DNA from: a virus
Length of the DNA: 43,168 bases
Direction: 5' to 3' (one strand)
IMG/VR virus record: IMGVR_UViG_3300025146_000006
The position numbers were made by a program, and so were the translations under genes. The number at the start of each line of letters is the position of its first letter. Positions within the stretch are counted from its first letter, which is position 1. Shown here piece by piece: positions 177 through 12,532 of the stretch. A model generated the notes under the pieces. It saw only the letters and a program-made list of their open reading frames with translations, ran no database searches and was not told the origin of the DNA.

Positions 177-1477
177 CGCCCACCGACCCCGTGCTCACAC
201 CCCTCGGCGACAGTCTGTGGGTCGTCTGGCCGGAGCGCGGGACCCTCGAGTTCGCCCGCGTCGCCGAGCACAGCGACAGCCTCTCGGCCGAGGTCACCGT
301 GGTCAGCGTGGCGGCCGGCGAGCTGTCGTGGTCGCGGCTGAACCTCGCCAGCGCGCAGAGCCGGGCGGGGCTGGCGCGGCTGCTCGAGGAGCGGGACCCG
401 GGGCAGGACTGGCGGGCGATGCTCGACCGCTCGTGTCGGCTGGTCGCCAGGCACCTCAGGGCGGGGGAGCCGGCCGTGGCGCTCGTGCCCGCCCCGCCGC
501 CGGCCGCCCACTGGCTCGTCGAGGGCCTGGTCCCGGCCGGGCAACTCTCCGTCGTGTTCGGCGACGGGGGCGTGGGCAAGAGCTACCTCGCGCTCGCGCT
601 GGCCCTGGCCGGGCTGCTGGCGCGCCCCCTCAGCGCGCGCTGGCGGGTGGCCCCGCTTCGCCGCGTCCTCTACCTCGACTGGGAGAGCGGGCGCGACGAG
701 CAACAGGCGCGGCTCTGGCGGTTGACCCGGGGCCTCGGCTCGACGCCCGTGGACGGCGCGCTGCTCCACCGGACGATGCGGCGGCCCCTGCTCGACGATC
801 TGCCGGCGCTCCGCGCCGAGGTCGCGCGCGAGCACGTGGACCTCGTGATCGCGGACAGCCTGGCCCCCGCGTGCGGCCCCGAGCCCGAGACGGCGTCGGC
901 CGTCGTGCCCGCCCTCCTGGGTCTCCGGAGCCTCGCCGTGACCGTGCTCATCCTCGCGCACGTCAGCAAGCAGACCGCCGACGTCCGCGCCCCAGGCCGC
1001 CCCTTCGGGAGCGTGTTCGTCCAGAACCTGGCTCGGAGCACGATCGAGGCCCGGCGGAGCGAGGCCACGGGCGAGGGCGAGCCCGGGTACACGCTCACGC
1101 TCTACCACCGCAAGGCCAACGAGGGGGAGATGCTCAGGCCGTCGGCGCTCGACTTCCGCTGGACCGATCCAGGCACCCTGACGGTCCGGGCCGGGCAGGC
1201 GGAGATGGGCTGGGCGAGCCTGCCGCAACAGGTGCTCGATGCGCTTCGGACCCCGAAGACCGCCCGTCAACTGGCCGAAGAACTGGAGGTCACGCCCGCG
1301 TCTGCCAAGAAGACGCTGCAGCGCCTCGAAAAGCGGGACAACGTGATCCGGCTTTCCGGGACAGACGGCGGACGAGGCAACGAACAGCTGTGGGCGCGCA
1401 CAGATAGAAAGCGGGACATGGACGGTGCCCAACCGGGACACACCAGGGAGCCTGGCGAAGATGATCCACCGTTCTAG
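173..1477 (+). CDS. RepA/AAA_25-type RecA-fold replicative helicase or initiator with a C-terminal winged-helix domain
   Basis: 434 aa. Walker A is VVFGDGGVGKSYLALALA and Walker B-like is DLVIADSLAP, followed by VLILAHVSKQ. The C-terminus (LPQQVLDALRTPKTARQLAEELEVTPASAKKTLQRLEKRDNVIRL) looks like a MarR-like wHTH. GC3 is high. Confidence 0.8.
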   Translation: MTPTDPVLTPLGDSLWVVWPERGTLEFARVAEHSDSLSAEVTVVSVAAGELSWSRLNLASAQSRAGLARLLEERDPGQDWRAMLDRSCRLVARHLRAGEPAVALVPAPPPAAHWLVEGLVPAGQLSVVFGDGGVGKSYLALALALAGLLARPLSARWRVAPLRRVLYLDWESGRDEQQARLWRLTRGLGSTPVDGALLHRTMRRPLLDDLPALRAEVAREHVDLVIADSLAPACGPEPETASAVVPALLGLRSLAVTVLILAHVSKQTADVRAPGRPFGSVFVQNLARSTIEARRSEATGEGEPGYTLTLYHRKANEGEMLRPSALDFRWTDPGTLTVRAGQAEMGWASLPQQVLDALRTPKTARQLAEELEVTPASAKKTLQRLEKRDNVIRLSGTDGGRGNEQLWARTDRKRDMDGAQPGHTREPGEDDPPF

Positions 1478-1531
1478 CCGTCCGTTCCAAACCGGGACAC
1501 CCTATAGAGAGAGAAATCTGTCCCGGTTTGG
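1334..1531. repeat. Cluster of six CGGGACA heptamers (five direct, one inverted), a putative origin or iteron region
   Basis: Direct copies of CGGGACA lie at 1334-1340, 1357-1363, 1412-1418, 1434-1440 and 1493-1499. An inverted copy (TGTCCCG) lies at 1519-1525. The coding copies sit in different codon phases, so the signal is at the DNA level rather than a peptide repeat. Confidence 0.55.
1487..1531 (+). terminator. Perfect 13-bp inverted repeat (CCAAACCGGGACA / TGTCCCGGTTTGG) with a 19-nt loop; either a terminator hairpin or a paired iteron
   Basis: Arm 1487-1499 is the exact reverse complement of arm 1519-1531. It starts 10 nt after the helicase stop. No U-tract follows (gttcccccc), so it is not a canonical intrinsic terminator. 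Confidence 0.35.
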
Positions 1532-1659
1532 TTCCCCCCAGACCCCCTTCCAACACCAGAACGCCAGGACATCGCCCCTCCGGGCGCTTCCTTCAGGCGC
1601 CCTTCGAGGCGAGATCAGACCGACCCCAGAGCCACCCCGCAGGGAAAGAGAGAGACCCG

Positions 1660-2073
1660 ATGATCGACAGCCTCCAGCCCCTGTGGTCCACCCCGGTCGT
1701 CCTGCGCCTGCTCGGCATCTCGGCGCGCTGGCTCCGCATCCTGGGCACGCGCGCCGGTGTCCCCACACGCTACGCGCGCGTCAGCTCGCACCCGCGCAAG
1801 GTCAGGCTGTGGACCAGCGATGAGATCCGGCGCGTGCAGGCCGTGCGCTACGGCGTCGATGTCAAGACGTTTATGTCTGGCATCTCATACCGGCATTCCC
1901 AAGTGGGAATAGCGCCTTTGGAGGCCGCGACCGGGGTTACACTGCCTCCCGGCGATGCCCAGCCCGTTGACGAACGTGGCGGAATTCGACCGGCGTCTCG
2001 CCCAGCACGGGCTCGAGGCCGGAGCCCCGCTCGTCCCAGCGCTCGACGCCGAGGCGCTCCGCCAGCTCGCTGA
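1660..2073 (+). CDS. Excisionase/MerR-like HTH DNA-binding protein; the 3' end is uncertain
   Basis: The ATG at 1660 opens MIDSLQPLWSTPVVLRLLGISARWLRILGTRAGVPTRY...RLWTSDEIRRV, an HTH_17-like pattern. GC3 drops after about 1870, yet the frame stays open to 2073 and overlaps the next gene by 119 nt. Confidence 0.55.
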   Translation: MIDSLQPLWSTPVVLRLLGISARWLRILGTRAGVPTRYARVSSHPRKVRLWTSDEIRRVQAVRYGVDVKTFMSGISYRHSQVGIAPLEAATGVTLPPGDAQPVDERGGIRPASRPARARGRSPARPSARRRGAPPAR

Positions 2074-2356
2074 CGGCGACGGCGAGCGCGCTTGGTCGCG
2101 GCTGCGCGGCCCGCTCGTACAACAGCTGCTCCGCGTCGCCAACCTCCCGGATTCCCTCGCGAACGAGGTCCACTACGGTCTCAAGGCCAAGCACCAGGCG
2201 ATCGACGCGCTGTTGCGCCGCGCGCTGCCTGAGACCACGCGGCTCGAGGTCACCACCCCGCGCCTGAGTGATACAGAGCTGGTCGACACGCTCGCGGTGC
2301 TCGGGCTGGTCGTGCCGGCGGCGCTGCCGGCAGCTGAGGGGGAGGGCGAGGAGTGA
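1955..2356 (+). CDS. Hypothetical helical protein with an acidic C-terminus; a small-terminase role is possible by position only
   Basis: 133 aa with very high GC3 throughout. It lies upstream of the HNH and terminase genes. I recognised no motif. Confidence 0.6.
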   Translation: MPSPLTNVAEFDRRLAQHGLEAGAPLVPALDAEALRQLADGDGERAWSRLRGPLVQQLLRVANLPDSLANEVHYGLKAKHQAIDALLRRALPETTRLEVTTPRLSDTELVDTLAVLGLVVPAALPAAEGEGEE

Positions 2357-2376
2357 CGCGGTGCGCCCGAACGAGT

Positions 2377-2392
2377 CGTAATAGCTATTACG
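2377..2392. promoter_or_regulatory. Perfect 16-bp palindrome CGTAATAGCTATTACG, a candidate operator
   Basis: It sits in an AT-richer 120-bp intergenic island between 2356 and 2478, about 50 bp upstream of a promoter-like element. Confidence 0.35.
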
Positions 2393-2442
2393 AGAAGCTG
2401 TTTCGGATCATGGCGGATGCGTTGATGAATAGCGACCATCTG

Positions 2443-2471
2443 TTGACACGAGCGCCGATGCGTGTTATCAC
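2443..2471 (+). promoter_or_regulatory. Sigma70-like promoter candidate: TTGACA, 17-nt spacer, TATCAC, ending 6 nt before the HNH ATG (a leaderless arrangement)
   Basis: TTGACA lies at 2443-2448, the spacer at 2449-2465 and TATCAC at 2466-2471, with the ATG at 2478. The -10 element lacks the conserved final T, so the call is weak. Confidence 0.3.
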
Positions 2472-2477
2472 TCACGC

Positions 2478-2945
2478 ATGCGAATCACCATTCTCCCTCG
2501 ACCGCTCCAGGTCAGGATCAGGGCGCCGAGACTCTCCGGGTGCTGGCGCTGGGCAGGATCGGTTACACCGGCAGGCTACGCGCGATTCAATGGCCGCTAC
2601 GCGCATCGCGTCGCGTGGGTGCACGTCAACGGCCAGATCCCCGAGCGCATGGTGCTCCATCACGCCTGCGGCACTCGTGAGTGCGTGCGTCCCGATCACC
2701 TCCGGCTGGTCGAGCGCGGCCCCCACATCGCCGAACACGCCGCCAGCCGACCGCGTCTCAGCCCGGAGGAACGACGAGAGCGCACCAGGCAGTCGCAACG
2801 GGCGTGGCAGGCCCGCCAACGCCTGCGCGGCGGCTGTCGGCGCTGTGTGGCCCCGGCCCTGCCAGGACGAACCTTCTGCGCCCCCCACCTTGCCGCGGAG
2901 CGCGCAGCCAAACGCCTCCGCGCTGCCGCCTCCCGCCTGCCCTGA
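2478..2945 (+). CDS. HNH endonuclease (HNH_3 type), adjacent to the terminase
   Basis: 155 aa. The motif GCWRWAGSVTPAGYARFNGRYAHRVAWVHVNGQIPERMVLHHACGTRECVRPDHL is characteristic of phage HNH_3 proteins. Confidence 0.85.
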   Translation: MRITILPRPLQVRIRAPRLSGCWRWAGSVTPAGYARFNGRYAHRVAWVHVNGQIPERMVLHHACGTRECVRPDHLRLVERGPHIAEHAASRPRLSPEERRERTRQSQRAWQARQRLRGGCRRCVAPALPGRTFCAPHLAAERAAKRLRAAASRLP

Positions 2946-3009
2946 CCGCCTCGCCTCCGCCCTCGACGCCTGCCGGCTGCACGCGGGCGGCTGGCCCTGG
3001 CGCGCCGCG

Positions 3010-3288
3010 GTGCGCCTGGCCGGCCGAGCGGCCGACGTCGCGCCGACCTGCGGCCACGCGGGCCCGGCCTGCGTGCTCTGCGGGGCGTGCCGGGCGTGCC
3101 ACGCGCGCGCGGCCGCGGCGCCGAACGGGGGCCCCATGGGCCTGGGGCGGGTGCACCGGCCGGTCCTCTCCTCCGACACACCACGTCCAGGAATCGCCCC
3201 CCCGCCCGTGGTCGCCGTCCCCGAAATCCCCCCCCTGCGGGCCGTGGCGCCTCCGGGTGCCCCGATCGCCCCCGAGGTCAGGGCCTGA
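3010..3288 (+). CDS. Cys-rich and Pro-rich hypothetical protein; start uncertain (GTG 3010, or upstream TTG 2890)
   Basis: The frame has high GC3 from about 2941 to the stop at 3286-3288, which overlaps the terL ATG (ATGA). It contains TCGHAGPACVLCGACRACH. No canonical start with an RBS was found. Confidence 0.35.
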   Translation: MRLAGRAADVAPTCGHAGPACVLCGACRACHARAAAAPNGGPMGLGRVHRPVLSSDTPRPGIAPPPVVAVPEIPPLRAVAPPGAPIAPEVRA

Positions 3289-4130
3289 TGGCCCCCCCGG
3301 CGGCGCGCGTCGCGCCCAGAGCCTCTCAGGCGGCGCCCCGCCTCACCAAGACCGAGCGCGCGGCTCTGGCGCAGCGCCTCTGGGACGGGATCTGCGCCTC
3401 GCCCTACGTGTTCCTCGGGCTCGCGAAGACCCTGGACGAGCACGCGCCGGAGGGGGAGCCGGCGGTGCGGCCCTTTCCGCTCTGCGCGGTCTGCGCGCAG
3501 GACGAGGCGGCCAACGAGCGGATCGCCCTGCGGGGGGGGCTCTCGATCTGCGCGGCGCACGGGCGGCGGCACAAGCCGTACTTCCGGGTGCTCGGGGAGG
3601 CGTGGCGGCGGGCGCCGTGGGAGTCCGAGGGGATCGTCTTGCTCGAGAAGTCGCGGCAGATGATCTGCTCGTGGTTCTTCGTCGAGCTGCTCGGGTGGCA
3701 GGTGATGGTGCGGCCGGGGACGCGCAACGCCATCCAGAGCCTGAACTACGACAAGGCGTGCGAGCTGGTCGAGCGGTTCGCGCTGAGCTACCAGGCGCTG
3801 CCGGCCGAGGCGCAGCGGTACGGGCCGCTCTCGGACAGTCCCAAGGCCCGGGCGCGGGCGATTCGGGGGAAGGTGGAGTTCCCGGAGATCCACGCGGAGC
3901 TGGTGGCGCTGCCGAACGGGCCGAACCAGACGCGGATGTACACGTTCACCTCGCTGCTGATGGACGAGTGCCAGCATTGGGAGCCGGACGAGGACTTCGA
4001 GGACAGCTACGCGGCGGGGCTGGCGACGATCAAGGGGGACGTGAACCGGACGGGGCGGCTGGTGGCGCTGTCGACGGTGCACCACGCGGGGAGCTTCCAC
4101 CATCGGCTCTGCCGGGGGCTGGCGGCATGA
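3288..4130 (+). CDS. terL: Terminase large subunit, N-terminal ATPase half only
   Basis: 280 aa. Walker-A-like motif is GIVLLEKSRQMICSW, Walker B is TSLLMDECQHW and motif III is RLVALSTV. An N-terminal CxxC...CxxH insert (PLCAVCAQDE...SICAAHGRRH) is present. The ORF stops at 4128-4130 with no nuclease motifs. Confidence 0.8.
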   Translation: MAPPAARVAPRASQAAPRLTKTERAALAQRLWDGICASPYVFLGLAKTLDEHAPEGEPAVRPFPLCAVCAQDEAANERIALRGGLSICAAHGRRHKPYFRVLGEAWRRAPWESEGIVLLEKSRQMICSWFFVELLGWQVMVRPGTRNAIQSLNYDKACELVERFALSYQALPAEAQRYGPLSDSPKARARAIRGKVEFPEIHAELVALPNGPNQTRMYTFTSLLMDECQHWEPDEDFEDSYAAGLATIKGDVNRTGRLVALSTVHHAGSFHHRLCRGLAA

Positions 4131-4606
4131 CGGCGCGGGATCGGATCGACCTGGTCCTCGTCGCCGCGACGCTGGCGGCGCTCGCGCTCTGGGGGTCCGG
4201 GCTCTACGGCCAGTGGCGCGCCGGCCGGGACGTCGCCGGGGCGCAGGCCCTGGCCGACGCCTACGCCGTCCATCTCGACCACGGCCGGAGCCACGCCGTC
4301 GAGTGGGCGGTCTGCGGCGCGCGGGCGCAGGGCGCGCGGGAGGCGAAGGACGCCGAGGCCGAGCGGGGCGCCGTGCAGTGCTGGCAGGCGGCGCGCGGGC
4401 GGGCGATGGACGAGTGGCTCCCGCAGGTCTACGGGCGCCTGCGGGCCGACTTCGGCCGGGCGGTCGCGGAGTCCTGGAAGCTCGGGGCGGACCTGTCGGA
4501 CCTCGGGACCTCGGAGCGGCGCGAGCACCAGGCGCGCCTGCTGGCGCTCGATCGGCTGCTGGGGCCGATGCGGGACGGGACGCTGCGGCGGCGGGCCGCG
4601 CGGTGA
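4127..4606 (+). CDS. N-terminally membrane-anchored helical protein, unknown function
   Basis: 159 aa. The ATG at 4127 overlaps the terL-N stop (ATGA). The TM segment is IDLVLVAATLAALALWGSGLY and the remainder is charged and helical. Confidence 0.65.
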   Translation: MTARDRIDLVLVAATLAALALWGSGLYGQWRAGRDVAGAQALADAYAVHLDHGRSHAVEWAVCGARAQGAREAKDAEAERGAVQCWQAARGRAMDEWLPQVYGRLRADFGRAVAESWKLGADLSDLGTSERREHQARLLALDRLLGPMRDGTLRRRAAR

Positions 4607-4650
4607 TCACCACGGACCAGCCGGCCGGGCCGGCGAAGAAGGAGCGCGCG

Positions 4651-5397
4651 ATGAACGAGCGGAGACTCTGGCCGAGTGTCCTGGCGGTGGCCCTGATGGC
4701 GGCGGCGGCGCTCTGGGTCGCGTGGCCGGCCGAGGCGCAGTGGGCCGAGATCACGACCAACGCCGTGAAACCGGCCGACACCGCGAAAGCGATCACGATC
4801 GGCCCGTCGGCGACCTCGGGCGTGCAGGTGACGACGGCCGGCAAGCTGAACCAGCTGGTCGCCGACACGGACGGCTGGGCGTTCATCCCGGCCTATCAGG
4901 GCTGTATCGCGAACACGATCACCGTCTCCGGCGTGCAGGGCGCGAAGACCCTCGTCGCGTCCCGGCAGGGGCTGAACCAGTGGAGCCTGCACTGGTCCTC
5001 GGGGCCCTCGCTCGCGCCGTTCAAGATCGTCTGTTCGCTCAACTCGTGGCTGCAGCGGCTCGGGGTGCAGAAGGGCTACGCGCTCAAGACCGTCTCGATC
5101 GTGCACCAGTTCTCCGCGGCCCCCGGGTCCACCTTCACGGAATGGGGGCGCCTGGCCTCCTGCACCTACGCCAACAACACCGCCATCACGTGCGGGGAGA
5201 ACCTGGTGGCGTCGCCGACGATGCCGAGCGCGTCGGACCCGGAGCCCCAGGTGACGACCGCGACGCTGACGACCGCGGCCTACATCGCGTCGCAAGTCGA
5301 TCTGAACCTCGAGTTCGGCGTCGAGATCCCGCAGGGCGGCAACGGGATCTACAACCTCTACGGCGTCTTCGTCACCTTCAACCGGCTGGATCACTAG
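4651..5397 (+). CDS. Secreted protein with a Sec signal peptide, beta-rich, unknown function
   Basis: 248 aa with a GAAGGAG RBS. The N-terminus MNERRLWPSVLAVALMAAAALWVAWPAEA/QW has n-region, h-region and AxA-type features. The sequence is rich in Thr, Ser and Ala. Confidence 0.7.
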   Translation: MNERRLWPSVLAVALMAAAALWVAWPAEAQWAEITTNAVKPADTAKAITIGPSATSGVQVTTAGKLNQLVADTDGWAFIPAYQGCIANTITVSGVQGAKTLVASRQGLNQWSLHWSSGPSLAPFKIVCSLNSWLQRLGVQKGYALKTVSIVHQFSAAPGSTFTEWGRLASCTYANNTAITCGENLVASPTMPSASDPEPQVTTATLTTAAYIASQVDLNLEFGVEIPQGGNGIYNLYGVFVTFNRLDH

Positions 5398-5405
5398 GGC
5401 GACGC

Positions 5406-6575
5406 ATGACGCGGCCGATGCAGGCACTCGGCGGCCTCGCGCTCGCGGGGCTCGCCGTCTGCCTGCCGTGGCTGACCGCGTGGTCGGCCGCGCTCTGGCT
5501 CTCCTCGTCGCGGGCGATCCTCGAAACGCCGCTGACGGCGCTCGCGGTCGCCGCCTTCGTGCTCGTCGGGGCGGCCGTCGCGATCCACGAACCCTGGCTC
5601 GGCGCCTTCGTCGCCTACGCGGGGCTGTCGCTCTTCCGCATCGGCTGGCCGGGCATGGCCGAGGCCGTGCTCCCGATCGCGCTCGGCGCGGTGACGATCG
5701 TCGCGGTCGGCGCGCTGCCCGCCCGCGCGGCGTTCGCCGGGGCCGCCGGGGCCTGGACGCTCCGGTGGCGCGGGGCGGCGCTCGGGGCCGCGGTCACGCT
5801 GCCCGCCGGGACGCTCCGGTGGCGACGCTGGGCGCTCGCCGCCCTCGTGGCCGGCGGCGTGGCGCAAACGCTCTACGCGCTCGCGCAGCTGGCCGGCCTG
5901 GACCCGCTCTGGCTCGGCTGGCGCGTCTCCCGCCGGGCGCTGCTGCTCCAGGGCACCTTCGGCCAGCACGGGCTCTACGGCGCCTATCTGGCGCTCCTCG
6001 CCCCGCTGGCTCCACTCTGGCTCGTGCCGGTCTTCCTCGTCGGCCTGCTGCTCTCCTACTCGACGGTCGCCGTGGGCGCCGCCGCGGTCGGCCTCCTCCT
6101 GCGCTGGCGCACGCGCACCTGGGGCGCCTGGGCGCTCGCCCTCGTCACGCTCGCGCTCGTCTGGTGGGCGCGTGGGGGCGTGGCGGCCGAGGCGTGGACG
6201 AATCGCCTGGACATCGCGCGCCAGGGGCTCGCGGGCTGGCTCTGGGCCTCGCCGTGGCTCGGGCTCGGCCCTGCGGCGTGGGCCTCGGTCGCCGACCCGA
6301 TGCAACTCGTTCGCGTGGCGCCGCGCGGGGCGCGCGAGATCTTCGTCCAGGCCCACAACGAGTACGTGCAGGTCGCGTTCGAGTACGGGGTGGTGGGCGT
6401 CGGGCTGCTCGCCGGCTTCTGCTGGGCGCACCGCCGGGCCCTCCAGGGCCGCTTCGGCGGGGCGCTCGTGAGCCTCGCGCTCGTGTCGCTCGCGTGGTTC
6501 CCGTTCCGCGTGGCGACGGTCGCGTGGACGGCCGTGGTGATCGTCGGGCTGGCGCTCGCGGAGGAGGCGGCGTGA
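5406..6575 (+). CDS. Wzy_C / O-antigen-ligase-like polytopic membrane protein, paralog 1
   Basis: 389 aa and hydrophobic throughout. The loop motif WLGLGPAAW...FVQAHNEYVQVAFEYGVVG matches the G-x-G...H-N-x-Y...E-x-G pattern of the WaaL/Wzy/PglL family. Confidence 0.75.
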   Translation: MTRPMQALGGLALAGLAVCLPWLTAWSAALWLSSSRAILETPLTALAVAAFVLVGAAVAIHEPWLGAFVAYAGLSLFRIGWPGMAEAVLPIALGAVTIVAVGALPARAAFAGAAGAWTLRWRGAALGAAVTLPAGTLRWRRWALAALVAGGVAQTLYALAQLAGLDPLWLGWRVSRRALLLQGTFGQHGLYGAYLALLAPLAPLWLVPVFLVGLLLSYSTVAVGAAAVGLLLRWRTRTWGAWALALVTLALVWWARGGVAAEAWTNRLDIARQGLAGWLWASPWLGLGPAAWASVADPMQLVRVAPRGAREIFVQAHNEYVQVAFEYGVVGVGLLAGFCWAHRRALQGRFGGALVSLALVSLAWFPFRVATVAWTAVVIVGLALAEEAA

Positions 6576-7447
6576 AGGGCGTGCGCGTGATTTCGCTCCA
6601 CTACAGCGCCGACGCGGAAAAGGCGGCGCCGGAGTGGAAAGAGCGCGCGAAAGTCGGGTATCCGCCGACCAAGTGGGAGCGGGAGATGGAGCTGAACGCC
6701 CACGCCGGCGCCCTGACGGCCGTCTTCCGCCTCGCCTACCGCGCGGACACGCACCTGCGCGCGCTCGAGCCCGATCCGGCCCTGCCGATGCGCCACGGCT
6801 GGGACTTCGGCAAGGGCTTTCCGGCCTGCGTGTGGTTTCAGCGCACGCGCGACAACGGCCTGCGCGTCTTCGGCTCCCTGGTCGGCGAGGCGGTGCAGCT
6901 CCGGAGCTTCGTCGAGCGCACGCTCGGCTTCACGCTCGAGCGCTTCGGGGATCTCTGGCCGAACCGGCGCGACTACTGCGACCCGGCGGGCAACCAGGAC
7001 AAGGACGACGGCCTGAAGTCCGTCGAGGTGCTCCGGAGCTTCGGCTGGAGCCCGAAATGGGTCGGCGGGCTGGTGCAGCCGGGCCTCGAGGCGCTCGAGC
7101 GGCTCATGACCCTGACGCTGCCGAGCGGCGACCCGGCGTTCCTCGTCGACCCACGGTGGAACCGGGTGCTGATCGAGGCGCTCGAGGGCCGGTACTATCG
7201 CAAGGCGTCGGGCGAGATCGCGCGCGAGCACCCCTGGATCGACGCGATGGACGCGCTCCGCTACGGTGTGATGTGCACGAAGACGCCTGACCGCCCGCGC
7301 CAACGTCCGGGGCGCCCGTTTCCGGTCAACGAGGTCTCCGGCTACGGCCTGGCGACGCGCCCGGACACGGCGGGCCACGTCGCGGGCGGCCCAGGGGCGT
7401 GGGACGAGGCGATGCGGGGCGCGGGCTACCTGGTGAACGGGCGATGA
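6572..7447 (+). CDS. terL: Terminase large subunit, C-terminal half (ATPase lid plus RNaseH-fold nuclease)
   Basis: 291 aa. The GTG at 6572 overlaps the upstream stop (GTGA), and GGAGGAGG lies 5-10 nt upstream. Nuclease acidic motifs are GWDFGKGFPACVW, YCDPAGNQDKDDG and HPWIDAMDALRYG. Confidence 0.8.
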   Translation: MKGVRVISLHYSADAEKAAPEWKERAKVGYPPTKWEREMELNAHAGALTAVFRLAYRADTHLRALEPDPALPMRHGWDFGKGFPACVWFQRTRDNGLRVFGSLVGEAVQLRSFVERTLGFTLERFGDLWPNRRDYCDPAGNQDKDDGLKSVEVLRSFGWSPKWVGGLVQPGLEALERLMTLTLPSGDPAFLVDPRWNRVLIEALEGRYYRKASGEIAREHPWIDAMDALRYGVMCTKTPDRPRQRPGRPFPVNEVSGYGLATRPDTAGHVAGGPGAWDEAMRGAGYLVNGR

Positions 7448-8514
7448 GGGCGCTCGGGCTCGCGGTCGGCCTCCTCGCGGCGCTGCTGCCCTGGACGGCG
7501 GCGGTCCGAGTGGCGCCGGTCGCCACGCCGGGCGCCGCGATCCTCGAGACGCCCCTCTACGTCTTCGTGGCCGCGCTCCTGGCCCTCGGGGGCGCCGCCC
7601 TGACGCGCGGGGACCGCTGGCTCGGCCTCCTCGTGCTCTGGGGGGCGCTCGGGGCGGTCGCGGCGCGCGACTGGATCGCGCTGGCGACCGCGCTGTGGCT
7701 CGCGGGCGGGGCGGCCGTCCTGGTGGCGGCGCGGGGCGCGGTCGAGCGTGGCGCGGGGCCGATCCTGCGCGTCCTGCTCGTCGCCACGGCCGCCGGGGAG
7801 GCGCTCTATGCCCTCGGGCAGGCGTTCCGGTGGGATCCCCTCTGGTGGGGCTCGGAGGCGCCGCCCTACGTCGTCTGGCACGGCACGCTCGGCAATCCGA
7901 AGTACCTCGGGGCGTTCCTGGCCCTGCTGGCGCCCCTGGCCCCGCTGGCCGTCCTGCCGATCCTGCTCGTCGGCGTCGTCCTGAGCCGCTCCTGGCTCGC
8001 CGCGGCGGCCGTGATCGTCGGGCTGGCGCTCCGGCCGTCCGGATCGCGCCGGGCGCGGGCCGGCGCGCTCGCGCTCGGCGTCCTGGGGGCGCTCGGCGCC
8101 GTCTGGGCGCGCGGGTGGAGCCCGGACAGCGCGCTGAACCGGCTGGCGGTCTGGCGGCTCGCGTGGGACGACCTCTGGGCCGTCCCCGTGACGCTCCTGA
8201 CGGGCTACGGGCCCGGGGCCTGGCCCCAGGCGATCACGGCGCGCCAGATCGTCGCCGCAGGCCAGGGCTGGCCCCCGGAACTCTTTGCCGCCGCCCACAG
8301 CGACCTCGTGCGGCTCGGGTTCGAGGGCGGGGCGCTCGCGCTCGCGGTCCTCGGGCTCTGGATCCTCGCGCACCGAGCGGCCTGGTGGCGCTCGCCCTGG
8401 CGCGGGGCGGCCGCGGCCCTCGCCGTGCTGGTGGTGGGGCTGCACCCGATGCATCTGGCCTCGATCGCCGTGCCGGCCTGCGTGGTGCTCGGCGCGGCCA
8501 CGGCGCGCACCTGA
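7444..8514 (+). CDS. Wzy_C / O-antigen-ligase-like polytopic membrane protein, paralog 2
   Basis: 356 aa. The ATG at 7444 overlaps the terL-C stop (ATGA). It shares AILETPL, LYAL.Q...DPLW, LALLAPLAPL, G.GP.AW and AH...V..GFE.G with the 5406-6575 product. Confidence 0.75.
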   Translation: MRALGLAVGLLAALLPWTAAVRVAPVATPGAAILETPLYVFVAALLALGGAALTRGDRWLGLLVLWGALGAVAARDWIALATALWLAGGAAVLVAARGAVERGAGPILRVLLVATAAGEALYALGQAFRWDPLWWGSEAPPYVVWHGTLGNPKYLGAFLALLAPLAPLAVLPILLVGVVLSRSWLAAAAVIVGLALRPSGSRRARAGALALGVLGALGAVWARGWSPDSALNRLAVWRLAWDDLWAVPVTLLTGYGPGAWPQAITARQIVAAGQGWPPELFAAAHSDLVRLGFEGGALALAVLGLWILAHRAAWWRSPWRGAAAALAVLVVGLHPMHLASIAVPACVVLGAATART

Positions 8515-8536
8515 TGAGCACACGGAGGACACGACG

Positions 8537-8908
8537 ATGAGGCGATGGACGGCGATTCTGGGGCTCCTGGCGGCGGTGGCGGCGCCGGCCGTGGTCGTGG
8601 CGGAGGACGTGGTCCTCCCGGGCGGCGTGCTGATGCAGATCTTCTCCCCGTCGCTGACCCCGGCGGCGCATGCAGCGGGCGGCCCGCTGAACACCGAGAC
8701 CTCCTTCGAGGAGACCTACACCGTGAGCGGCCTGCTCCCGGGCGGGGCGGTCTTCGTCTCGCCGCCGTCCCAGACGGCCGCCTGCCCGATGAGCGGGGCG
8801 CGCGTGTCGGCGCTCAACACGCTGGCGCTGACCTACACGAAGCAGACGACGGCGGCGTGCACGCCCGCGAGCGGCACCTACCGCGTGACGAACATCCTGA
8901 AGCCATGA
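8537..8908 (+). CDS. Small secreted protein with a signal peptide
   Basis: 123 aa with a CGGAGGA RBS. The N-terminus is MRRWTAILGLLAAVAAPAVVVA/ED. The mature part is beta-rich and has three Cys. Confidence 0.65.
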   Translation: MRRWTAILGLLAAVAAPAVVVAEDVVLPGGVLMQIFSPSLTPAAHAAGGPLNTETSFEETYTVSGLLPGGAVFVSPPSQTAACPMSGARVSALNTLALTYTKQTTAACTPASGTYRVTNILKP

Positions 8909-9087
8909 CGCGCGGGCTCGATCTCCTGCTCGCGTTCCTGCTCGGCGCCGCCCTGGCTGGCGCGGGGGCGGTCTGGGCCGACGCCCCGCGCTGGGGGGCG
9001 CAGTCCGGGCTCGTGATGTGGACGCACGCGACGAGCGGACCCGTGGAGGCGAGTACGACGAACCCCGTGCCCGTCCAGGGCTACTGA
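8905..9087 (+). CDS. 60-aa secreted peptide precursor whose mature part resembles the N-terminus of the next protein
   Basis: MTRGLDLLLAFLLGAALAGAGAVWA/DAPRWGAQSGLVMWTHATSGPVEASTTNPVPVQGY. It has ATGA overlaps at both ends. Confidence 0.55.
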   Translation: MTRGLDLLLAFLLGAALAGAGAVWADAPRWGAQSGLVMWTHATSGPVEASTTNPVPVQGY

Positions 9088-10439
9088 TGCGCCGGCGTCT
9101 CGCGCTCCGCGGTCTCGCGGTCCTGCTGATCCTCGGTCTGGGGGGGCTCGCCACCGCCCGGGCCGACGCCCCGCGCTGGTCCGCCCTCTCGACGCTGCTC
9201 ATGTGGACCAAGGCGGATCCGACGGGGCCGACCGAGGTGACGGCGGCGGACCCGCTGCCGGTCACCATCAGCGGGGACGCGACCCTCGACACGCTGACGA
9301 TCGACGAGAAGATCCTCCTCCCCGCCGGCACGACGGCGGCGCCGAGTCTTCAGTGGCCCGCGACGGGGCTGACGCAGATCTCCACCGCCGTCCTCGGCCT
9401 GGTGAATGGTGAGGTCTCGCAGGAATTTCGTGTGTACGGCACGGCGACGGGAGGCGAGTATCTCGCGCTTCAGGGCGCCGCGGCCTCCCAGACGGTGCGG
9501 TCGTCGGTGGGCAATCTCAACCTCGGCTATGCGACGGCGACCCCTCTGGTCGTGTCGACGACGGGCACTATCTACGTCGGCGAGGTCGGCAACGACAACA
9601 CGAACGGCACGGGCAATCCCGACGGCCGACTGCAAATCATGGTCGACACGAACGCGGTCGTCAACCCATTCAACATTCAGAATTTCCGCTCCACGGCCGG
9701 GGCGGGCATCGGGATGTCGTTCGGGCTCGGCGCGACGGACGACCTCGTCTATCCCTACTACGTCCTCCGCCTCACCCACACGAACCAATGGACCTCGACG
9801 GCCAGCTCCCGCAAGGGCATCATGCAGATCGGGGTGCCCAACGGGGCCAACCCGGCGTATTACCTTGCGCTCGACAGCGAGCAGGCGATGGTCAACGCCA
9901 CCGCCGACCTCTGGCTCGATGCGCCGAAGGTCACGGCGGGCTCGGGAACGGGCGTCACGGTCAATGCCCCGGGCTCCGCCCGCTCCGTCGTCTACAAGGT
10001 CACCGTCCTCTCCACCAACTGCGTCGCCGCCGCGACGACGTGCGACCTCACCATCGCCACGCTCCCCGCCAAGGCGTTCCTCAAGGCCGTCATCGCGGAC
10101 CTGACGACGACCTACGCCTGCACCGCCGTCTGCACGACCGCGACGCTCTCGGGCACGCTCGGCACGAGCGCGGGCGGCACGCAACTGCTGGCCTCGATGG
10201 ACCTCGACGCCGCGGCCGCGCAGTTCGGCGACGCGGATGCGGAACTCGGGGCCACCATGAACGCGGCCGCCCGGAGCGCCAACGGCGCGCTGTTCAACGG
10301 CGTGCTGATGTCGTGGTCGGGCACGACGACGGTGACCTACCGGATCACGAGCGGCACCGGCAACCTCGGCGACGGCGCGGCGACGAATCTGAGTCAGGGC
10401 ACCATCGTCTTTTACTTGGTCACGGAGGTCTTCCCGTAG
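9087..10439 (+). CDS. Large secreted protein with a signal peptide; beta-rich and Thr/Ala/Gly-rich; possibly a fibre or adhesin
   Basis: 450 aa. The N-terminus is MRRRLALRGLAVLLILGLGGLATARA/DAPRWSALSTLLMWTKADPTGPTEVTAADPLPV. It lies immediately upstream of the portal gene. Confidence 0.7.
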   Translation: MRRRLALRGLAVLLILGLGGLATARADAPRWSALSTLLMWTKADPTGPTEVTAADPLPVTISGDATLDTLTIDEKILLPAGTTAAPSLQWPATGLTQISTAVLGLVNGEVSQEFRVYGTATGGEYLALQGAAASQTVRSSVGNLNLGYATATPLVVSTTGTIYVGEVGNDNTNGTGNPDGRLQIMVDTNAVVNPFNIQNFRSTAGAGIGMSFGLGATDDLVYPYYVLRLTHTNQWTSTASSRKGIMQIGVPNGANPAYYLALDSEQAMVNATADLWLDAPKVTAGSGTGVTVNAPGSARSVVYKVTVLSTNCVAAATTCDLTIATLPAKAFLKAVIADLTTTYACTAVCTTATLSGTLGTSAGGTQLLASMDLDAAAAQFGDADAELGATMNAAARSANGALFNGVLMSWSGTTTVTYRITSGTGNLGDGAATNLSQGTIVFYLVTEVFP

Positions 10440-12532
10440 TGGAGATCCGCCGCGCGAGCCCGATCCCGCTCGACAGCCCCAAGGCGTTTTACACGAACCA
10501 CGCCAGGGACGCCGAGACGGCCCGGCGCGCCGTGAAGCTCGCGCTGCCGATGCTGACGCACGTCCGCCGGAACCGCCAGACGATCGACAAGAAGGCCCTG
10601 CGCCGCTACAACCAGTGGGCGCTCGTCACGGACGACCGCTTCTACGTCGGGCGCGCGAACACCTACATCCCCGCCGTGCGCCGGGGCGTCGAGCGCCTCG
10701 TGAGCAGCACGATCCGCGAGACGTTCCCCTCGGACGAGTGGTGGGACCTGCAGGCGACCGCCCCGGAGTTCGAGAAGAACCTCGACGGCCAGCGGGCCCT
10801 CCTGCGCCAGCAGCTCCGCCAGATGGCCGTCAAGCGCCTGGCCCGGCCGACGTACCGGCAGGCCTTCATTTGCGGCCTCACCCCGGTGCGGGTCGGGTGG
10901 AAGACGGTCGAGCGCACGGAGAGCGCGATCGGCCCGGGTCCGGACGGGAAGGGCTTCGGCGTCACGCAGCGCCGCCGCGTGCTCTACAACGGTCCCGAGT
11001 TCGAGCCCGTGGACTTCTTCAGCTTCGGCGTCTACCCGATGACGGGGCTGCGCCTGGAGGACGCGCTGCTCGTGTACGAGGACGCCGTGGTGAGCCTCGA
11101 CGAGTTGCAGGCCGACCGTGACAACTACACGAACCTCGCGCGGGCGAAGTCCGCGGCGGGCAGCGGGACCAGCGGGAGCGAGGCCCTGCAGCAGCGCCAG
11201 CAGCGCCTCCGCCAGCTCGGGATCACCGAGGACGAGCTGACCGACGGCCAGTTCGCCTTCATCACGCACTGCTACCTGTCGGCCTTCGATCTCAAGGACC
11301 GCTTCCGCCTCGGGCCCGAACCCGTGATCCTGACGCTCGCGTGGGAGGAGGTGCCGATCCGCCTGCAGCGCAACGCCTACGGCCGGGCGCCCTATCTCGA
11401 GGTGCGCGACAGCGAGATGATCGGGGAGCACTGGCCGCACGCGCGCACGGAGGCGACCGATCGGCTGCAGATCCACCTGAACGACGTGTCGAATCAGGAC
11501 GCGGACGCCTCGAGCTTCGCCAACAACCCGATCGTGCTGGTGGACCCCAACGTCGTCGAGGACTACCAGGCGATCGCCATCTACCCGGGCGCCAAGGTGC
11601 CGGCGCCGAAAGACGCCGTGAGCTTCGACCGCCCGCCCGAGGCGGCGTACAGCCAGAAGGACAAGCTCGCCTTCCTGCACCAGCTCATCAACGAGAACCT
11701 GGGCTCGCCGACCGCCGCGAGCGGCAGCCCGGCCGCCTCCGCGCAGCCCCGCGGCGCCCGGACCTTCGGCGGGATGCAGATGCTCCAGATGCTCGCCGGC
11801 TCCGAAGCCAAGGAGTTCGTCGAGTTCCAGGAGGAGAACTTCTGGGAGCCGCTCCTGGGGTGGATGGCGAAGATGAACGCCCTGTTCCTCTCCGACGAGC
11901 AGACGCTCCGCATGGCGGGCAGCCGGGGCGCGGCCATCGTGGTGAACCGCGAGACCTTCGCGGGCGACTACGCCTACGAGTGGCTCGGCACCTCGACGAT
12001 GCAGAATCAGACCGTGCGCTCGGCGCAGATGCTGGTCTTCATGAACGTGCTGCGGGGGCTCCAGCTCCCGCCCGGGCAGTCGGTCAACGTCGCGTACATC
12101 CTCAAGACGTGGTGGCGCTCGCAGGGCCTGAAGGACGCCGACCGCGTGATCCTCGACGCGACGCCCGAGTCCGTGCCGGCCGACCTCGAGCAGCAGCTCG
12201 TGGCGATGGGGCGCGCGATTCAGGTCTCCCCGCAGGACAACGACGCCGAGCACATCGCGAGCCACGCCCGCGCCCGCGGCGCGCTGCCGCCCGACAGCCC
12301 CGAGCACCAGACGCTGCTCCAGCACGAGCAGGCGCACGCCACGCAGCTGCTCGTCAAGCAGCAGGCGGCGCTCCTCCAGCAGTCTGCGGCGATGCCCGGG
12401 GGCGGCACGAACGGGGGGCCCGCCCCGGCGGGGGCGAAGGCCGGCATGAAGCCGCGGATGGGTGCGGACTCCGGCATGGGACCGGCGCGCGCGATGCTGG
12501 CCGCCCCCGGGGGCGCGCCGGGAGGCCCCTGA
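10439..12532 (+). CDS. Portal protein (podovirus, T7 gp8-like head-tail connector)
   Basis: About 697 aa. The GTG at 10439 has GGAGG upstream. It contains YIPAVRRGVERLVSSTIRETFPSDEWWD. Size, position and a Gln/Ala/Gly-rich C-terminal tail fit a portal. Confidence 0.75.
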   Translation: MEIRRASPIPLDSPKAFYTNHARDAETARRAVKLALPMLTHVRRNRQTIDKKALRRYNQWALVTDDRFYVGRANTYIPAVRRGVERLVSSTIRETFPSDEWWDLQATAPEFEKNLDGQRALLRQQLRQMAVKRLARPTYRQAFICGLTPVRVGWKTVERTESAIGPGPDGKGFGVTQRRRVLYNGPEFEPVDFFSFGVYPMTGLRLEDALLVYEDAVVSLDELQADRDNYTNLARAKSAAGSGTSGSEALQQRQQRLRQLGITEDELTDGQFAFITHCYLSAFDLKDRFRLGPEPVILTLAWEEVPIRLQRNAYGRAPYLEVRDSEMIGEHWPHARTEATDRLQIHLNDVSNQDADASSFANNPIVLVDPNVVEDYQAIAIYPGAKVPAPKDAVSFDRPPEAAYSQKDKLAFLHQLINENLGSPTAASGSPAASAQPRGARTFGGMQMLQMLAGSEAKEFVEFQEENFWEPLLGWMAKMNALFLSDEQTLRMAGSRGAAIVVNRETFAGDYAYEWLGTSTMQNQTVRSAQMLVFMNVLRGLQLPPGQSVNVAYILKTWWRSQGLKDADRVILDATPESVPADLEQQLVAMGRAIQVSPQDNDAEHIASHARARGALPPDSPEHQTLLQHEQAHATQLLVKQQAALLQQSAAMPGGGTNGGPAPAGAKAGMKPRMGADSGMGPARAMLAAPGGAPGGP

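What the first reader, a model, noticed from the sequence alone, without database searches (positions are those of the whole stretch)
4127..10439. Envelope-directed cassette between terminase and portal: two paralogous Wzy_C/O-antigen-ligase-like proteins plus five exported proteins
The region between TerL-N and the portal normally holds no genes. Here, apart from the terL nuclease half (6572-7447) embedded within it, the span holds seven:
- A TM-anchored protein (4127-4606).
- A signal-peptide protein (4651-5397).
- Wzy_C-like protein 1 (5406-6575).
- Wzy_C-like protein 2 (7444-8514).
- Three further signal-peptide proteins (8537-8908, 8905-9087, 9087-10439).

The two polytopic proteins share AILETPL, LYAL.Q..DPLW, LALLAPLAPL, G.GP.AW and AH(N/S)..V..(F)E.G. 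The last of these resembles the WaaL/Wzy/PglL family signature.

Classical serotype-converting phages such as D3 and epsilon15 carry a single Wzy-type polymerase as a moron. Here there are two paralogs, each next to exported Thr/Ser/Ala-rich proteins. They are embedded in the late packaging operon and translationally coupled to it.

I see three possible readings, all inference:
- A late-expressed surface-glycan remodelling or superinfection-exclusion module.
- PglL/PilO-like O-oligosaccharyltransferases that glycosylate the co-encoded exported proteins.
- Exported, possibly glycosylated, virion fibres.

Any of these would be an undescribed arrangement.
Basis: partly seen in the sequence, partly recalled or inferred. 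Interest (0 to 1): 0.85.

Follow-up and report, generated by a model that had tools for sequence, protein, structure and literature searches.

The report
Phage WaaL-like enzymes with secreted partners
An uncultivated groundwater phage carries, wedged into its DNA-packaging genes, two membrane enzymes of the O-antigen-ligase type plus five secreted proteins; the enzyme-plus-secreted-partner pair recurs in many uncultivated phages but in no deposited phage genome, and may be a phage-run system for attaching sugars to its own exported proteins.

Summary
All seven genes are real: GC3 is 0.92-0.97, dN/dS is 0.29-0.47 for the three that diverge from a relative, and public contigs carry identical calls.

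**The two polytopic proteins**
- They are paralogs (38% identity, E 2e-13).
- Neither matches Pfam Wzy_C itself. A 74% ortholog does (5.5e-7), as do 50 of 77 family representatives.
- A confident model (pLDDT 90.9) has one significant PDB match, WaaL O-antigen ligase.

- The split terminase is clade-wide: 61 of 81 related loci have a nuclease-only ORF. The gap before the portal often holds cargo there.
- The cassette's core recurs. Across about 40 metagenomic phage loci, a WaaL-like gene is almost always preceded by a signal-peptide protein gene, usually after the capsid gene. Enzyme clades track partner families.
- The 450-aa protein belongs to a separate, mobile family of exported fibre-like proteins.
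- No GenBank phage has either the enzyme or that domain.

**Reading**
My best guess (about 0.4, inferred) is phage-encoded periplasmic O-oligosaccharyltransferases that glycosylate the co-encoded exported proteins. The main rival is remodelling of host LPS or EPS.

The parts
2478..2945 (+). HNH_3 homing-type endonuclease just upstream of the terminase genes. It is context, not part of the cassette.
   Evidence: Pfam HNH_3, E 1.3e-14. Public gene callers instead called an overlapping 311-aa ORF at 2353-3288.
3288..4130 (+). TerL ATPase half, a separate polypeptide of 280 aa.
   Evidence: No direct Pfam or PHROG hit. The iterated profile aligns its residues 95-276 to residues ~45-210 of fused ~510-aa TerLs, E 1e-50 to 1e-55. 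Its stop overlaps the next start (ATGA).
4127..4606 (+). g159: protein with an N-terminal TM anchor and an Arg-rich helical domain. Function unknown.
   Evidence: One TM segment at residues 9-27; GC3 0.97. dN/dS 0.47 against L001. Homologs occur only in its own lineage. No Pfam, PHROG or PADLOC hit.
4651..5397 (+). g248: Sec-type signal-peptide protein (cleavage AEA|QW), 4 Cys, 18% Ser+Thr. It lies immediately upstream of WaaL-like enzyme 1 and is its candidate partner or acceptor.
   Evidence: One search gives the signal peptide and composition. dN/dS is 0.29. Its position matches the rule that a signal-peptide protein precedes the enzyme, seen in about 30 of 34 other loci.
5406..6575 (+). 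WaaL-like / Wzy_C-superfamily enzyme 1: 389 aa, 12 predicted TM helices, with a periplasmic TM9-TM10 loop carrying R267 and H317.
   Evidence: The AF2 model has pLDDT 90.9. Its only significant Foldseek match is 7TPG_B WaaL, E 2.9e-4, probability 1.0. The ortholog P0002 hits Wzy_C at 5.5e-7. dN/dS is 0.43.
6572..7447 (+). TerL nuclease half, a separate polypeptide of 291 aa.
   Evidence: phrog_2, E 4.3e-7. 32% identity to residues 275-455 of the fused TerL of MW202477, E 8e-22. Its profile aligns to residues ~241-500 of fused TerLs.
7444..8514 (+). WaaL-like / Wzy_C-superfamily enzyme 2: 356 aa, a paralog of enzyme 1 that lacks its 103-138 insertion.
   Evidence: 38% identity over 248 aa, E 2e-13. 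It shares the AH(N/S)xxVxxxFExG motif and the invariant Arg/His. It falls in the same broad enzyme clade as the other g123-partnered enzymes, though not as their immediate sister.
8537..8908 (+). g123: signal-peptide protein with 2 conserved Cys. It is the partner of enzyme 2 that is conserved across phages.
   Evidence: Homologs lie directly upstream of the Wzy-like gene in L011, L012, L013 and L140, spanning GC 0.43-0.71.
8905..9087 (+). g60: signal peptide plus a 35-aa mature peptide that duplicates the N-terminal motif of g450 (DAPRW..L.MWT).
   Evidence: 56% identity over 34 aa, E 4e-10. Start overlaps the g123 stop (ATGA).
9087..10439 (+). g450: exported, Thr/Ala/Gly-rich, fibre-like protein with a widely shared C-terminal domain of about 175 aa.
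   Evidence: 99 relatives were found, matching mostly about 35-45% (range 20-62%) of its length. In all 11 relatives inspected this is the C-terminal domain. Identity is mostly 45-90%. 87 of 94 have signal-peptide-like N-termini. Relatives sit in unrelated podoviruses that lack any Wzy-like gene.
10439..12532 (+). Portal protein; the downstream boundary of the cassette.
   Evidence: phrog_1216, E 3.2e-13; Pfam SU10_portal, E 7.1e-7.

Best explanation
**Shown.** The window is a roughly 43-kb, 72% GC, podovirus-like phage from groundwater metagenomes. Its large terminase is made as two polypeptides. Two sub-modules of envelope-directed genes are inserted around the nuclease half:
- g159, g248 and WaaL-like enzyme 1;
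- WaaL-like enzyme 2, g123, g60 and g450.

The two enzymes have the 12-TM WaaL/Wzy_C fold. The family-invariant Arg and His lie in the loop between TM9 and TM10, which I infer to be periplasmic.

**Inferred mechanism.**
- Late in infection the genes are co-translated with the packaging genes.
- The Sec machinery exports the signal-peptide proteins.
- Each enzyme takes a host undecaprenyl-pyrophosphate-linked glycan at the outer face of the inner membrane and transfers it en bloc onto its co-encoded exported partner.
- This is an O-oligosaccharyltransferase and acceptor pair, analogous to TfpO/TfpM with their pilins.
- Enzyme 1 would serve g248. Enzyme 2 would serve g123 and probably the g60/g450 N-terminal tag.

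**More speculative.** The glycosylated secreted proteins, the accompanying drain on lipid-linked O-units, or both, would remodel or mask the surface of the infected cell and its debris. That would give exclusion and protect progeny.
For: **Fold and family**
- 50 of 77 relatives and the 74% ortholog hit Pfam Wzy_C.
- R267, G286, G288, H317 and G328 are invariant.
- The model has pLDDT 90.9 and WaaL 7TPG is its only significant PDB match.
- Model helices plus the positive-inside rule place R267-H317 in the TM9-TM10 outer loop, as in WaaL. This is inference.

**Coupling to exported proteins**
- In about 30 of 34 complete cases the gene directly upstream of a family member encodes a signal-peptide protein. 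These partners fall into at least 15 unrelated sequence families.
- Enzyme clades are congruent with partner families.
- The g123-enzyme pair is retained from GC 0.43 to 0.72.
- Genes overlap by 1-4 nt.
- No promoter-like site, and only one likely-chance terminator-like site (3655, inside the TerL-N gene), lies on the + strand in the scanned 1400-16500; none lies within 4127-10439.

**Similarity to known O-OTases**
- The only curated NCBI family hit by more than one member is the O-OTase TfpM: 4 of 77, best 3.1e-6.
- All known O-OTases carry Wzy_C with an essential His. TfpO and TfpM acceptor genes lie immediately upstream of the enzyme gene (PMC9829042).

**Other**
- The partners have Cys pairs and are 13-26% Ser+Thr, consistent with a periplasmic fate.
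- The genes are under purifying selection.
Against: - No glycosylation was observed and no sequon was identified.
- The window's own proteins fail Pfam and NCBIfam thresholds.
- The enzymes are 340-400 aa. That is shorter than TfpM (420-440 aa) and, from my own knowledge, than TfpO and PglL.
- The partners are not pilins. Only three g123 relatives end in Ser or Thr, and the window's g123 ends in Pro.
- The one solved structural match is a lipid A-core ligase, not an OTase.
- TM-score is only 0.43.
- Adjacency and co-diversification fit equally well with the secreted protein being an accessory subunit or specificity factor.
- g450-type proteins occur widely without any such enzyme, so g450 need not be a substrate.
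- The host, and therefore the donor glycan, is unknown.
Confidence: 0.4

Rival explanations
1. Surface-glycan remodelling of the classical kind. The enzymes act as WaaL-type ligases or Wzy-type polymerases on host lipid A-core, O-antigen or EPS intermediates. This changes or strips the phage receptor, giving superinfection exclusion or protecting progeny from debris. The secreted neighbours would be accessory factors, for example inhibitors of the host enzyme or specificity or chain-length factors, rather than acceptors.
For: - WaaL is the only significant structural match.
- Phage-borne Wzy polymerases with a small inhibitor peptide are established in P. aeruginosa D3-type phages (PMC4815439, listed).
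- The enzymes are WaaL-sized.
- Two paralogs could act on two glycans.
Against: - No integrase or other lysogeny gene was found among the ORFs scanned, which included all those over 250 aa.
- The genes sit in late structural or packaging operons in about 40 loci, not in lysogeny-expressed moron positions.
- tblastn finds no similarity to any of 50,697 deposited phages, known seroconverters included.
- This reading does not explain why a 150-200 aa signal-peptide protein nearly always precedes the enzyme and co-diversifies with it.
Confidence: 0.25
2. An egress or lysis-associated envelope cassette. The TM-anchored g159, the exported proteins and the Und-PP-glycan-consuming enzymes together weaken or reorganise the envelope for release. 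Possible routes are depleting lipid carrier or disrupting outer layers, with the fibre-like or beta-helix exported proteins acting as depolymerases from within.
For: - No endolysin, holin or spanin was recognisable among the window ORFs scanned with Pfam or PHROGs; short ORFs were not all scanned.
- In T7-like phages of the same samples, the same gap before the portal holds a lipobox coiled-coil protein and small TM/Pro-rich proteins next to the Wzy-like or g450-like gene.
- Some g450 relatives carry NosD beta-helix domains or weak XepA (PBSX lysis-cassette) matches.
- g159 has the architecture of an i-spanin.
Against: - No homology to any lysis protein. The Rz-like PHROG hit in g450 is E 0.021.
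- g60 has no lipobox Cys.
- There is no precedent for WaaL-fold enzymes in lysis.
- In most other phages the module sits between the capsid and adaptor genes, without spanin-like neighbours.
Confidence: 0.1
3. Exported virion fibres. g248 and g450, possibly glycosylated, are virion components that join particles only after lysis mixes the periplasm and cytoplasm.
For: - g450 relatives show tail-fibre-like sequence patterns; this is my reading of the sequences, not a tested match.
- The fibre-like signal-peptide neighbour in L122 matches a tail-spike PHROG over one short motif, E 2.9e-4.
- The g450 C-terminal domain is shared at 69-90% identity between unrelated phages of the same habitat, as receptor-binding domains often are.
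- The genes lie inside structural operons.
Against: - Tailed-phage assembly is cytoplasmic, and I know of no precedent for Sec-exported virion proteins.
- In g450 the conserved end is C-terminal and the variable end N-terminal, the reverse of typical fibres.
- The window has other tail or receptor-binding candidates: 17895-19499, 22852-26088 and the Laminin_G_3 protein at 28243-29073.
Confidence: 0.05

Closest known systems
WaaL O-antigen ligase (Cupriavidus metallidurans, PDB 7TPG)
   Same: - It is the only significant structural match: Foldseek E 2.9e-4, probability 1.0.
- Both are polytopic, about 12 TM, and similar in size (403 vs 356-389 aa).
- Both have a Wzy_C region with conserved Arg and His in the outer loop before the last TM bundle.
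   Different: - 16% identity and TM-score 0.43.
- No sequence-level PDB hit, even with a 77-sequence profile.
- The phage genes are not in an LPS-core locus. They are phage-encoded and paired with signal-peptide protein genes.
- The acceptor is unknown.
Pilin-specific O-oligosaccharyltransferases TfpO (PilO) and TfpM with their cognate pilins
   Same: - Both are Wzy_C enzymes with an essential conserved His.
- The acceptor gene lies immediately upstream of the enzyme gene (PMC9829042). This mirrors the rule that a signal-peptide protein precedes the enzyme.
- TfpM is the only NCBIfam family hit by several phage-family members.
- Three g123 relatives end in Thr or Ser.
   Different: - Only 4 of 77 members hit TfpM, and the window proteins do not.
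- The phage enzymes are 340-400 aa versus 420-440 aa.
- The partners have Sec signal peptides, not prepilin leaders, and belong to many unrelated families.
- There is no general C-terminal Ser/Thr.
- The context is viral and late-operon.
Seroconverting phage O-antigen polymerases (P. aeruginosa D3 Wzy-beta with the Iap inhibitor; Salmonella epsilon15)
   Same: Both are phage-encoded enzymes of the Wzy/WaaL superfamily that act on Und-PP-linked glycans at the periplasmic face. Both are accompanied by a small envelope-directed protein.
   Different: - No detectable sequence similarity to any deposited phage.
- Two paralogs here rather than one.
- The partners are 120-450 aa secreted proteins, not a ~30-aa membrane peptide.
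- The genes sit in packaging or structural operons of a phage with no integrase found.
General O-OTase PglL (Neisseria, Burkholderia, Acinetobacter)
   Same: It is a Wzy_C enzyme that transfers lipid-linked glycans to Ser/Thr in Ala/Ser/Pro-rich regions of many periplasmic proteins. This would fit internal sites in the Ser/Thr/Ala-rich partners.
   Different: From my own knowledge, PglL is much larger and is not paired with a dedicated acceptor gene. No profile hit to PglL-type models was obtained.

Membership tests
Wzy_C / O-antigen ligase superfamily (Pfam PF04932) | Match to the PF04932 profile | tested here: inconclusive
   The window proteins give no hit even at E<=10. The 74% ortholog P0002 hits at 5.5e-7. 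50 of 77 family representatives hit at E<=0.01, best 2.4e-13. The precomputed hit for the identical protein P0001 is flagged 'weak'.
Wzy_C / O-antigen ligase superfamily (Pfam PF04932) | Conserved His (and Arg) in the periplasmic loop, within an HNxxLxxxxExG-type motif | tested here: met
   H317, R267, G286, G288 and G328 are invariant in 77 sequences. The motif reads AHNEYVQVAFEYG in enzyme 1 and AHSDLVRLGFEGG in enzyme 2, and is found in 109 of 151 retrieved relatives.
Wzy_C / O-antigen ligase superfamily (Pfam PF04932) | Polytopic 10-14 TM fold similar to solved WaaL | tested here: met
   The AF2 model has pLDDT 90.9 and pTM 0.88, with about 12 TM helices. 7TPG_B is the only hit with E<=0.001, at TM-score 0.43. 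The next hit is FtsW at E 0.4.
Wzy_C / O-antigen ligase superfamily (Pfam PF04932) | Transfer of an Und-PP-linked glycan to an acceptor | not testable with these tools
   This needs biochemistry or glycoengineered expression.
Pilin-type O-oligosaccharyltransferases (TfpO/TfpM) | Match to a curated TfpM/TfpO model | tested here: inconclusive
   NF058641 TfpM is hit by 4 of 77 relatives, best 3.1e-6. Enzyme 1 itself has no hit; the per-member results for the other 76, including enzyme 2, are not listed.
Pilin-type O-oligosaccharyltransferases (TfpO/TfpM) | Cognate acceptor gene immediately upstream of the enzyme gene | tested here: met
   This is met as an architecture only. A signal-peptide protein gene lies directly upstream in about 30 of 34 complete loci, and g248 precedes enzyme 1. 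That these proteins are acceptors is not shown.
Pilin-type O-oligosaccharyltransferases (TfpO/TfpM) | Acceptor is a type IV pilin-like protein glycosylated at a C-terminal Ser/Thr | tested here: not met
   The partners have Sec-type signal peptides, not prepilin leaders. C-terminal residues vary (H, P, Y, N, Q and others). Only L011 and L013 (Thr) and L012 (Ser) fit.
Seroconverting phage Wzy (D3 / epsilon15 type) | Sequence relationship to known phage polymerases | tested here: not met
   tblastn of enzyme 2 and of the L011 enzyme against 50,697 GenBank phage records gave no match at E<=1e-3. BFVD fold search gave none at E<=0.001.
Seroconverting phage Wzy (D3 / epsilon15 type) | Carried by a temperate phage and expressed as a lysogenic-conversion moron | tested here: inconclusive
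   No integrase or repressor was found among the ORFs scanned, which included all those over 250 aa. The genes overlap the late packaging genes. Expression timing was not measured.
Large terminase (TerL), as context | ATPase and nuclease domains in one polypeptide | tested here: not met
   The domains are encoded 2.4 kb apart, at 3288-4130 and 6572-7447. Together they cover residues ~45-500 of fused homologs. 61 of 81 related loci also have a nuclease-only ORF.

The most novel reading that the evidence does not exclude
Hundreds of lineages of uncultivated tailed phages encode their own periplasmic protein-glycosylation system. It would consist of a minimal WaaL-fold O-oligosaccharyltransferase dedicated to a co-evolving, phage-encoded secreted acceptor, expressed from the structural operon. 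If so, it would, to my knowledge, be the first viral en bloc (lipid-linked donor) protein glycosylation system in bacteria. The glycoproteins might mask receptors, or even join virions after lysis.
Probability: 0.3. Interest if true: 0.85.

Novelty: new variant of a known kind. Interest (0 to 1): 0.7.

Why it matters
- **A new way for phages to use host glycan precursors.** If the enzymes glycosylate phage-encoded exported proteins, phages would be hijacking host lipid-linked glycans for their own secreted proteome. That differs from both cytoplasmic virion glycosylation and classical O-antigen seroconversion.
- **Possible biotechnology use.** It would supply a large natural library of very small (340-400 aa) O-OTase and acceptor pairs, of possible use for bioconjugate vaccine engineering.
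- **A neglected class of late phage genes.** Whatever the mechanism, Sec-exported proteins sit inside the structural operons of many uncultivated podoviruses.
- **A question for packaging-motor assembly.** A large phage clade makes the packaging ATPase and nuclease as separate proteins. The two genes can be kilobases apart, or on opposite strands.

Tried and rejected
**Searches that found nothing**
- Direct Pfam, PHROG, NCBIfam and PADLOC scans of the seven cassette proteins gave nothing significant.
- PDB sequence searches found nothing useful. The 4- and 77-sequence enzyme profiles gave no hit, and single-sequence g450 and g248 gave nothing better than E 0.29.
- The first AF2 run, on a 3-sequence alignment, was unusable at pLDDT 41.
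- The genome-contig scan returned only two distant loci, one of them an ordinary cellular polysaccharide locus. It gave no host clue.
- PHROG and Pfam scans of ten partner proteins from other loci gave nothing useful apart from a short tail-spike motif.
- Literature searches found no description of the module or of a split TerL.

**Ideas rejected**
- An intron or intein interrupting terL. Rfam found no intron. The halves are separate ORFs with their own starts. In relatives they lie in either order, or on opposite strands.
- Spurious high-GC ORFs. GC3 is 0.92-0.97 and dN/dS is below 0.5.
- g60 as an o-spanin. It has no Cys or lipobox.
- C-terminal Ser/Thr as a general acceptor site.
- g450 as an obligate partner of the enzymes.

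Full report
**1. What the window is**

The window is 72% GC with all genes on the + strand.
- Structural genes are podovirus-like:
  - a portal matching PHROG 1216 at 3e-13 and Pfam SU10_portal at 7e-7;
  - a major capsid protein matching phrog_1357 at 5e-40;
  - an SU10-type adaptor at 1e-11.
- The same sequence occurs on dozens of groundwater-metagenome contigs of 42-44 kb, so it is essentially a complete phage genome.
- No tRNA and no Rfam element were found. No integrase or recognisable lysis gene was found among the ORFs scanned, which included all those over 250 aa.

**2. Check of the observation**

- GC3 is 0.92-0.97.
- Junctions overlap by 4 nt or 1 nt at 4127, 6572, 7444, 8905, 9087 and 10439. 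GGAG-type ribosome-binding sites precede the two genes that do not overlap a neighbour's stop.
- Independent gene calls on public contigs are identical.
- Against a strain that is 60-94% identical across 3338-7337, dN/dS is 0.47 for g159, 0.29 for g248 and 0.43 for enzyme 1. The two terminase halves give 0.17-0.18. These are functional genes under relaxed but purifying selection.
- The two polytopic proteins are paralogs: 38% identity over 248 aa, E 2e-13.
- g60 and g450 share a 34-residue motif at the start of the mature chain, E 4e-10.
- Signal peptides with AxA-type sites are evident in g248, g123, g60 and g450, and g159 has one N-terminal TM segment. This is heuristic, as SignalP was unavailable.

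**3. Are the polytopic proteins Wzy_C / O-antigen-ligase-like?**

Directly, no. Neither window protein hits PF04932 even at E<=10. At family level, yes.
- The 74% ortholog P0002 hits Wzy_C at 5.5e-7.
- An exhaustive profile search found 916 representative clusters at E<=1e-3 and 102 at E<=1e-30. Most of the 150 listed are 330-400 aa.
- 50 of 77 aligned representatives hit Wzy_C, best 2.4e-13.
- R267, G286, G288, H317 and G328 are invariant across the 77.
- With that alignment AlphaFold gave a confident model, pLDDT 90.9 and pTM 0.88.
- The model's only significant PDB match is the WaaL O-antigen ligase 7TPG: E 2.9e-4, probability 1.0, TM-score 0.43. The next hit is FtsW at E 0.4.
- Reading the model's helices with the positive-inside rule gives 12 TM helices with both termini inside. 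R267-H317 falls in the outer loop between TM9 and TM10, as in WaaL. This step is inference.
- Among curated NCBI families, the only one hit by more than one member is the O-oligosaccharyltransferase TfpM: 4 of 77, best 3.1e-6.

**4.

Iterated searches show that 3288-4130 aligns to residues ~45-210 of fused ~510-aa TerLs, and 6572-7447 aligns to residues ~241-500. The two ORFs together make one TerL.

This split is a clade trait.
- 61 of 81 IMG/VR loci with a related nuclease domain have a nuclease-only ORF of about 270-325 aa.
- The ATPase half is found in several positions:
  - adjacent in 7 loci;
  - upstream but separated in 14;
  - downstream in 4;
  - on the opposite strand 5-8 kb away in 7.
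- A more distant deposited relative, MW202477, has a normal fused 494-aa TerL followed directly by the portal gene.
- In the split clade, the gap between the nuclease half and the portal has a median of 426 bp and reaches 7.1 kb.

So 'a region that normally holds no genes' is not accurate here. None of these 80 loci carries a Wzy-like gene, however, so this particular cargo is unusual within the clade.

**5. The cassette's core is a recurrent phage module**

Family members were recovered on 16 IMG/VR contigs and 53 metagenome contigs, spanning GC 0.34-0.75. Terminase, portal or capsid genes lie nearby in about 20 of them.
- In two syntenic low-GC phages (L011, L013) the order is: TerL nuclease half, portal, scaffold, capsid, two small genes, a g123-like signal-peptide protein, the WaaL-like enzyme, another signal-peptide protein, then further structural genes.
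- In about 30 of 34 loci with a complete upstream neighbour, that neighbour is a signal-peptide protein. It is usually 150-200 aa and most have 1-6 Cys. These partners fall into at least 15 mutually unrecognisable sequence families.
- A neighbour-joining tree of the enzymes groups them by the family of the adjacent secreted protein. Enzyme and partner therefore co-diversify.
- In the window, g248 precedes enzyme 1, the canonical order. g123 follows enzyme 2. Elsewhere g123's homologs precede enzymes of the same broad clade as enzyme 2.
- A T7-like phage from the same sample (L121) carries an enzyme 46% identical to enzyme 1, with signal-peptide neighbours, just upstream of its portal gene.
- No deposited phage genome (50,697 records) and no BFVD structure matches the enzymes.

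**6. g450 is a separate module**

- It has 99 relatives matching mostly about 35-45% (range 20-62%) of its length. In all 11 inspected this is the C-terminal ~175-aa domain. Identity is mostly 45-90%.
- 87 of 94 full-length relatives have signal-peptide-like N-termini.
- N-terminal parts vary. They include NosD-type beta-helix, a weak XepA match and what I read as tail-fibre-like sequence patterns.
- Relatives sit in T7-like, P22-like, SU10-like and temperate phages that lack any Wzy-like gene. In the T7-like phages the position is again between terminase and portal.
- Identity of 69-90% between unrelated phages from the same aquifer indicates horizontal exchange of a host-specific domain.
- No deposited phage has this domain.

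**7. Mosaicism**

A sister strain (L001) is 100% identical to the window from about position 7340 rightwards. To the left it is 60-94% identical. The g159, g248 and enzyme-1 unit therefore travels with the left arm. The unit of enzyme 2, g123, g60 and g450 travels with the structural arm.

**8. Mechanism**

*Shown:*
- WaaL-fold enzymes with the conserved Arg and His;
- partner proteins with Sec-type signal peptides, so probably exported;
- tight genetic coupling between enzyme and partner;
- co-diversification of the two;
- location in late operons;
- purifying selection.

*Inferred, confidence about 0.4:* the enzymes are O-oligosaccharyltransferases. They would transfer host Und-PP-linked glycans onto the co-encoded secreted proteins. 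This parallels TfpO and TfpM, whose acceptor genes lie immediately upstream and whose Wzy_C His is essential (PMC9829042).

*Caveats:*
- no sequon has been identified;
- the partners are not pilins;
- the enzymes are smaller than known O-OTases;
- the only solved homolog is a lipid A-core ligase;
- the partner could be a subunit rather than a substrate.

*Rivals:*
- classical LPS or EPS remodelling (0.25);
- an egress or lysis-related envelope cassette (0.1);
- post-lysis virion fibres (0.05).

**9. Verdict**

This is one unusually elaborate, duplicated instance of a widespread but undescribed phage module, placed in a cargo hotspot created by a clade-wide split terminase.
- I rate the novelty as a new variant of a known kind.
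- I score the interest at 0.7.

Noticed in passing
window 3288-4130 and 6572-7447; loci L030-L109: The large terminase is split into separate ATPase and nuclease polypeptides across a large clade of uncultivated phages: 61 of 81 related IMG/VR loci. The two genes may be adjacent, kilobases apart, in reversed order, or on opposite strands. I found no description of this in the literature searches.
   Followed up: partly
window 2478-2945 (+): An HNH_3 endonuclease gene (E 1.3e-14) lies just upstream of the terminase ATPase half. Public gene callers instead called an overlapping 311-aa ORF (2353-3288) in another frame, which is probably wrong.
   Followed up: partly
window ~7340 (end of the TerL nuclease gene), compared with L001: There is a sharp recombination boundary. 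The sister strain is 100% identical from about 7340 to at least 16578, but only 60-94% identical from 3338 to 7337. Cassette genes diverge more than the terminase halves.
   Followed up: yes
mature N-termini of signal-peptide proteins next to Wzy-like genes (window g248, g60, g450; L011-L027, L122, L154): A Trp lies within the first ~6 residues after the predicted cleavage site in 6 of 15 partner families, against about 9% expected (P ~1e-3). Cleavage sites were hand-picked and the test is post hoc. Other families have their own conserved mature N-terminus (GNKNDLAY, YxSxGxDP). This may be a recognition tag.
   Followed up: partly
window 5712-5819 (enzyme 1 residues ~103-138): Enzyme 1 and its ortholog carry an Arg-rich insertion of about 35 residues. 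It is modelled as beta-hairpins in the predicted cytoplasmic loop after TM4. It is absent from enzyme 2 and from the other ten aligned relatives.
   Followed up: no
L115-L117 and L121-L122 (T7-like phages from the same groundwater samples): Upstream of the portal gene (in L115-L117, where the terminase is on the contig, demonstrably in the terminase-portal gap; L122 has neither gene), these phages hold a lipobox or signal-peptide coiled-coil protein of about 96-100 aa. They also hold a small TM + poly-Pro + Arg-rich protein of about 78-85 aa, next to the g450-like or Wzy-like gene. These may be spanin-like lysis genes.
   Followed up: no
window 21455-21931 (+): An acetyltransferase-like protein (phrog_1249, E 3.7e-8) is encoded among the tail genes. 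It could be another glycan-modifying function.
   Followed up: no
window 28243-29073 (+): A protein with a concanavalin-A-like lectin/glucanase domain (Laminin_G_3, E 2.3e-4, below the Pfam cutoff) lies at the end of the tail region. It is a candidate receptor-binding protein distinct from g450.
   Followed up: no
window 33450-34088 and 38558-39499; L007 928-1662: There are several DNA methyltransferases: MT-A70 at E 8.6e-26, phrog_24333 at E 1.4e-66, and N6_N4_Mtase in the public annotation.
   Followed up: no
L002-L004 3522-6122 versus window 173-1477: The sister lineage encodes an 866-aa DnaB helicase carrying an intein with a LAGLIDADG endonuclease, plus a ParB-like protein. The window has a 434-aa AAA_25 protein upstream of the terminase region instead, which shows left-arm mosaicism.
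   Followed up: no
window n-regions of g248, g123 and g450 (MNERRLW, MRRWTA, MRRRLAL): Three of the signal peptides contain twin arginines. In a 72% GC genome this may only reflect Arg replacing Lys, but Tat rather than Sec export cannot be excluded.
   Followed up: no
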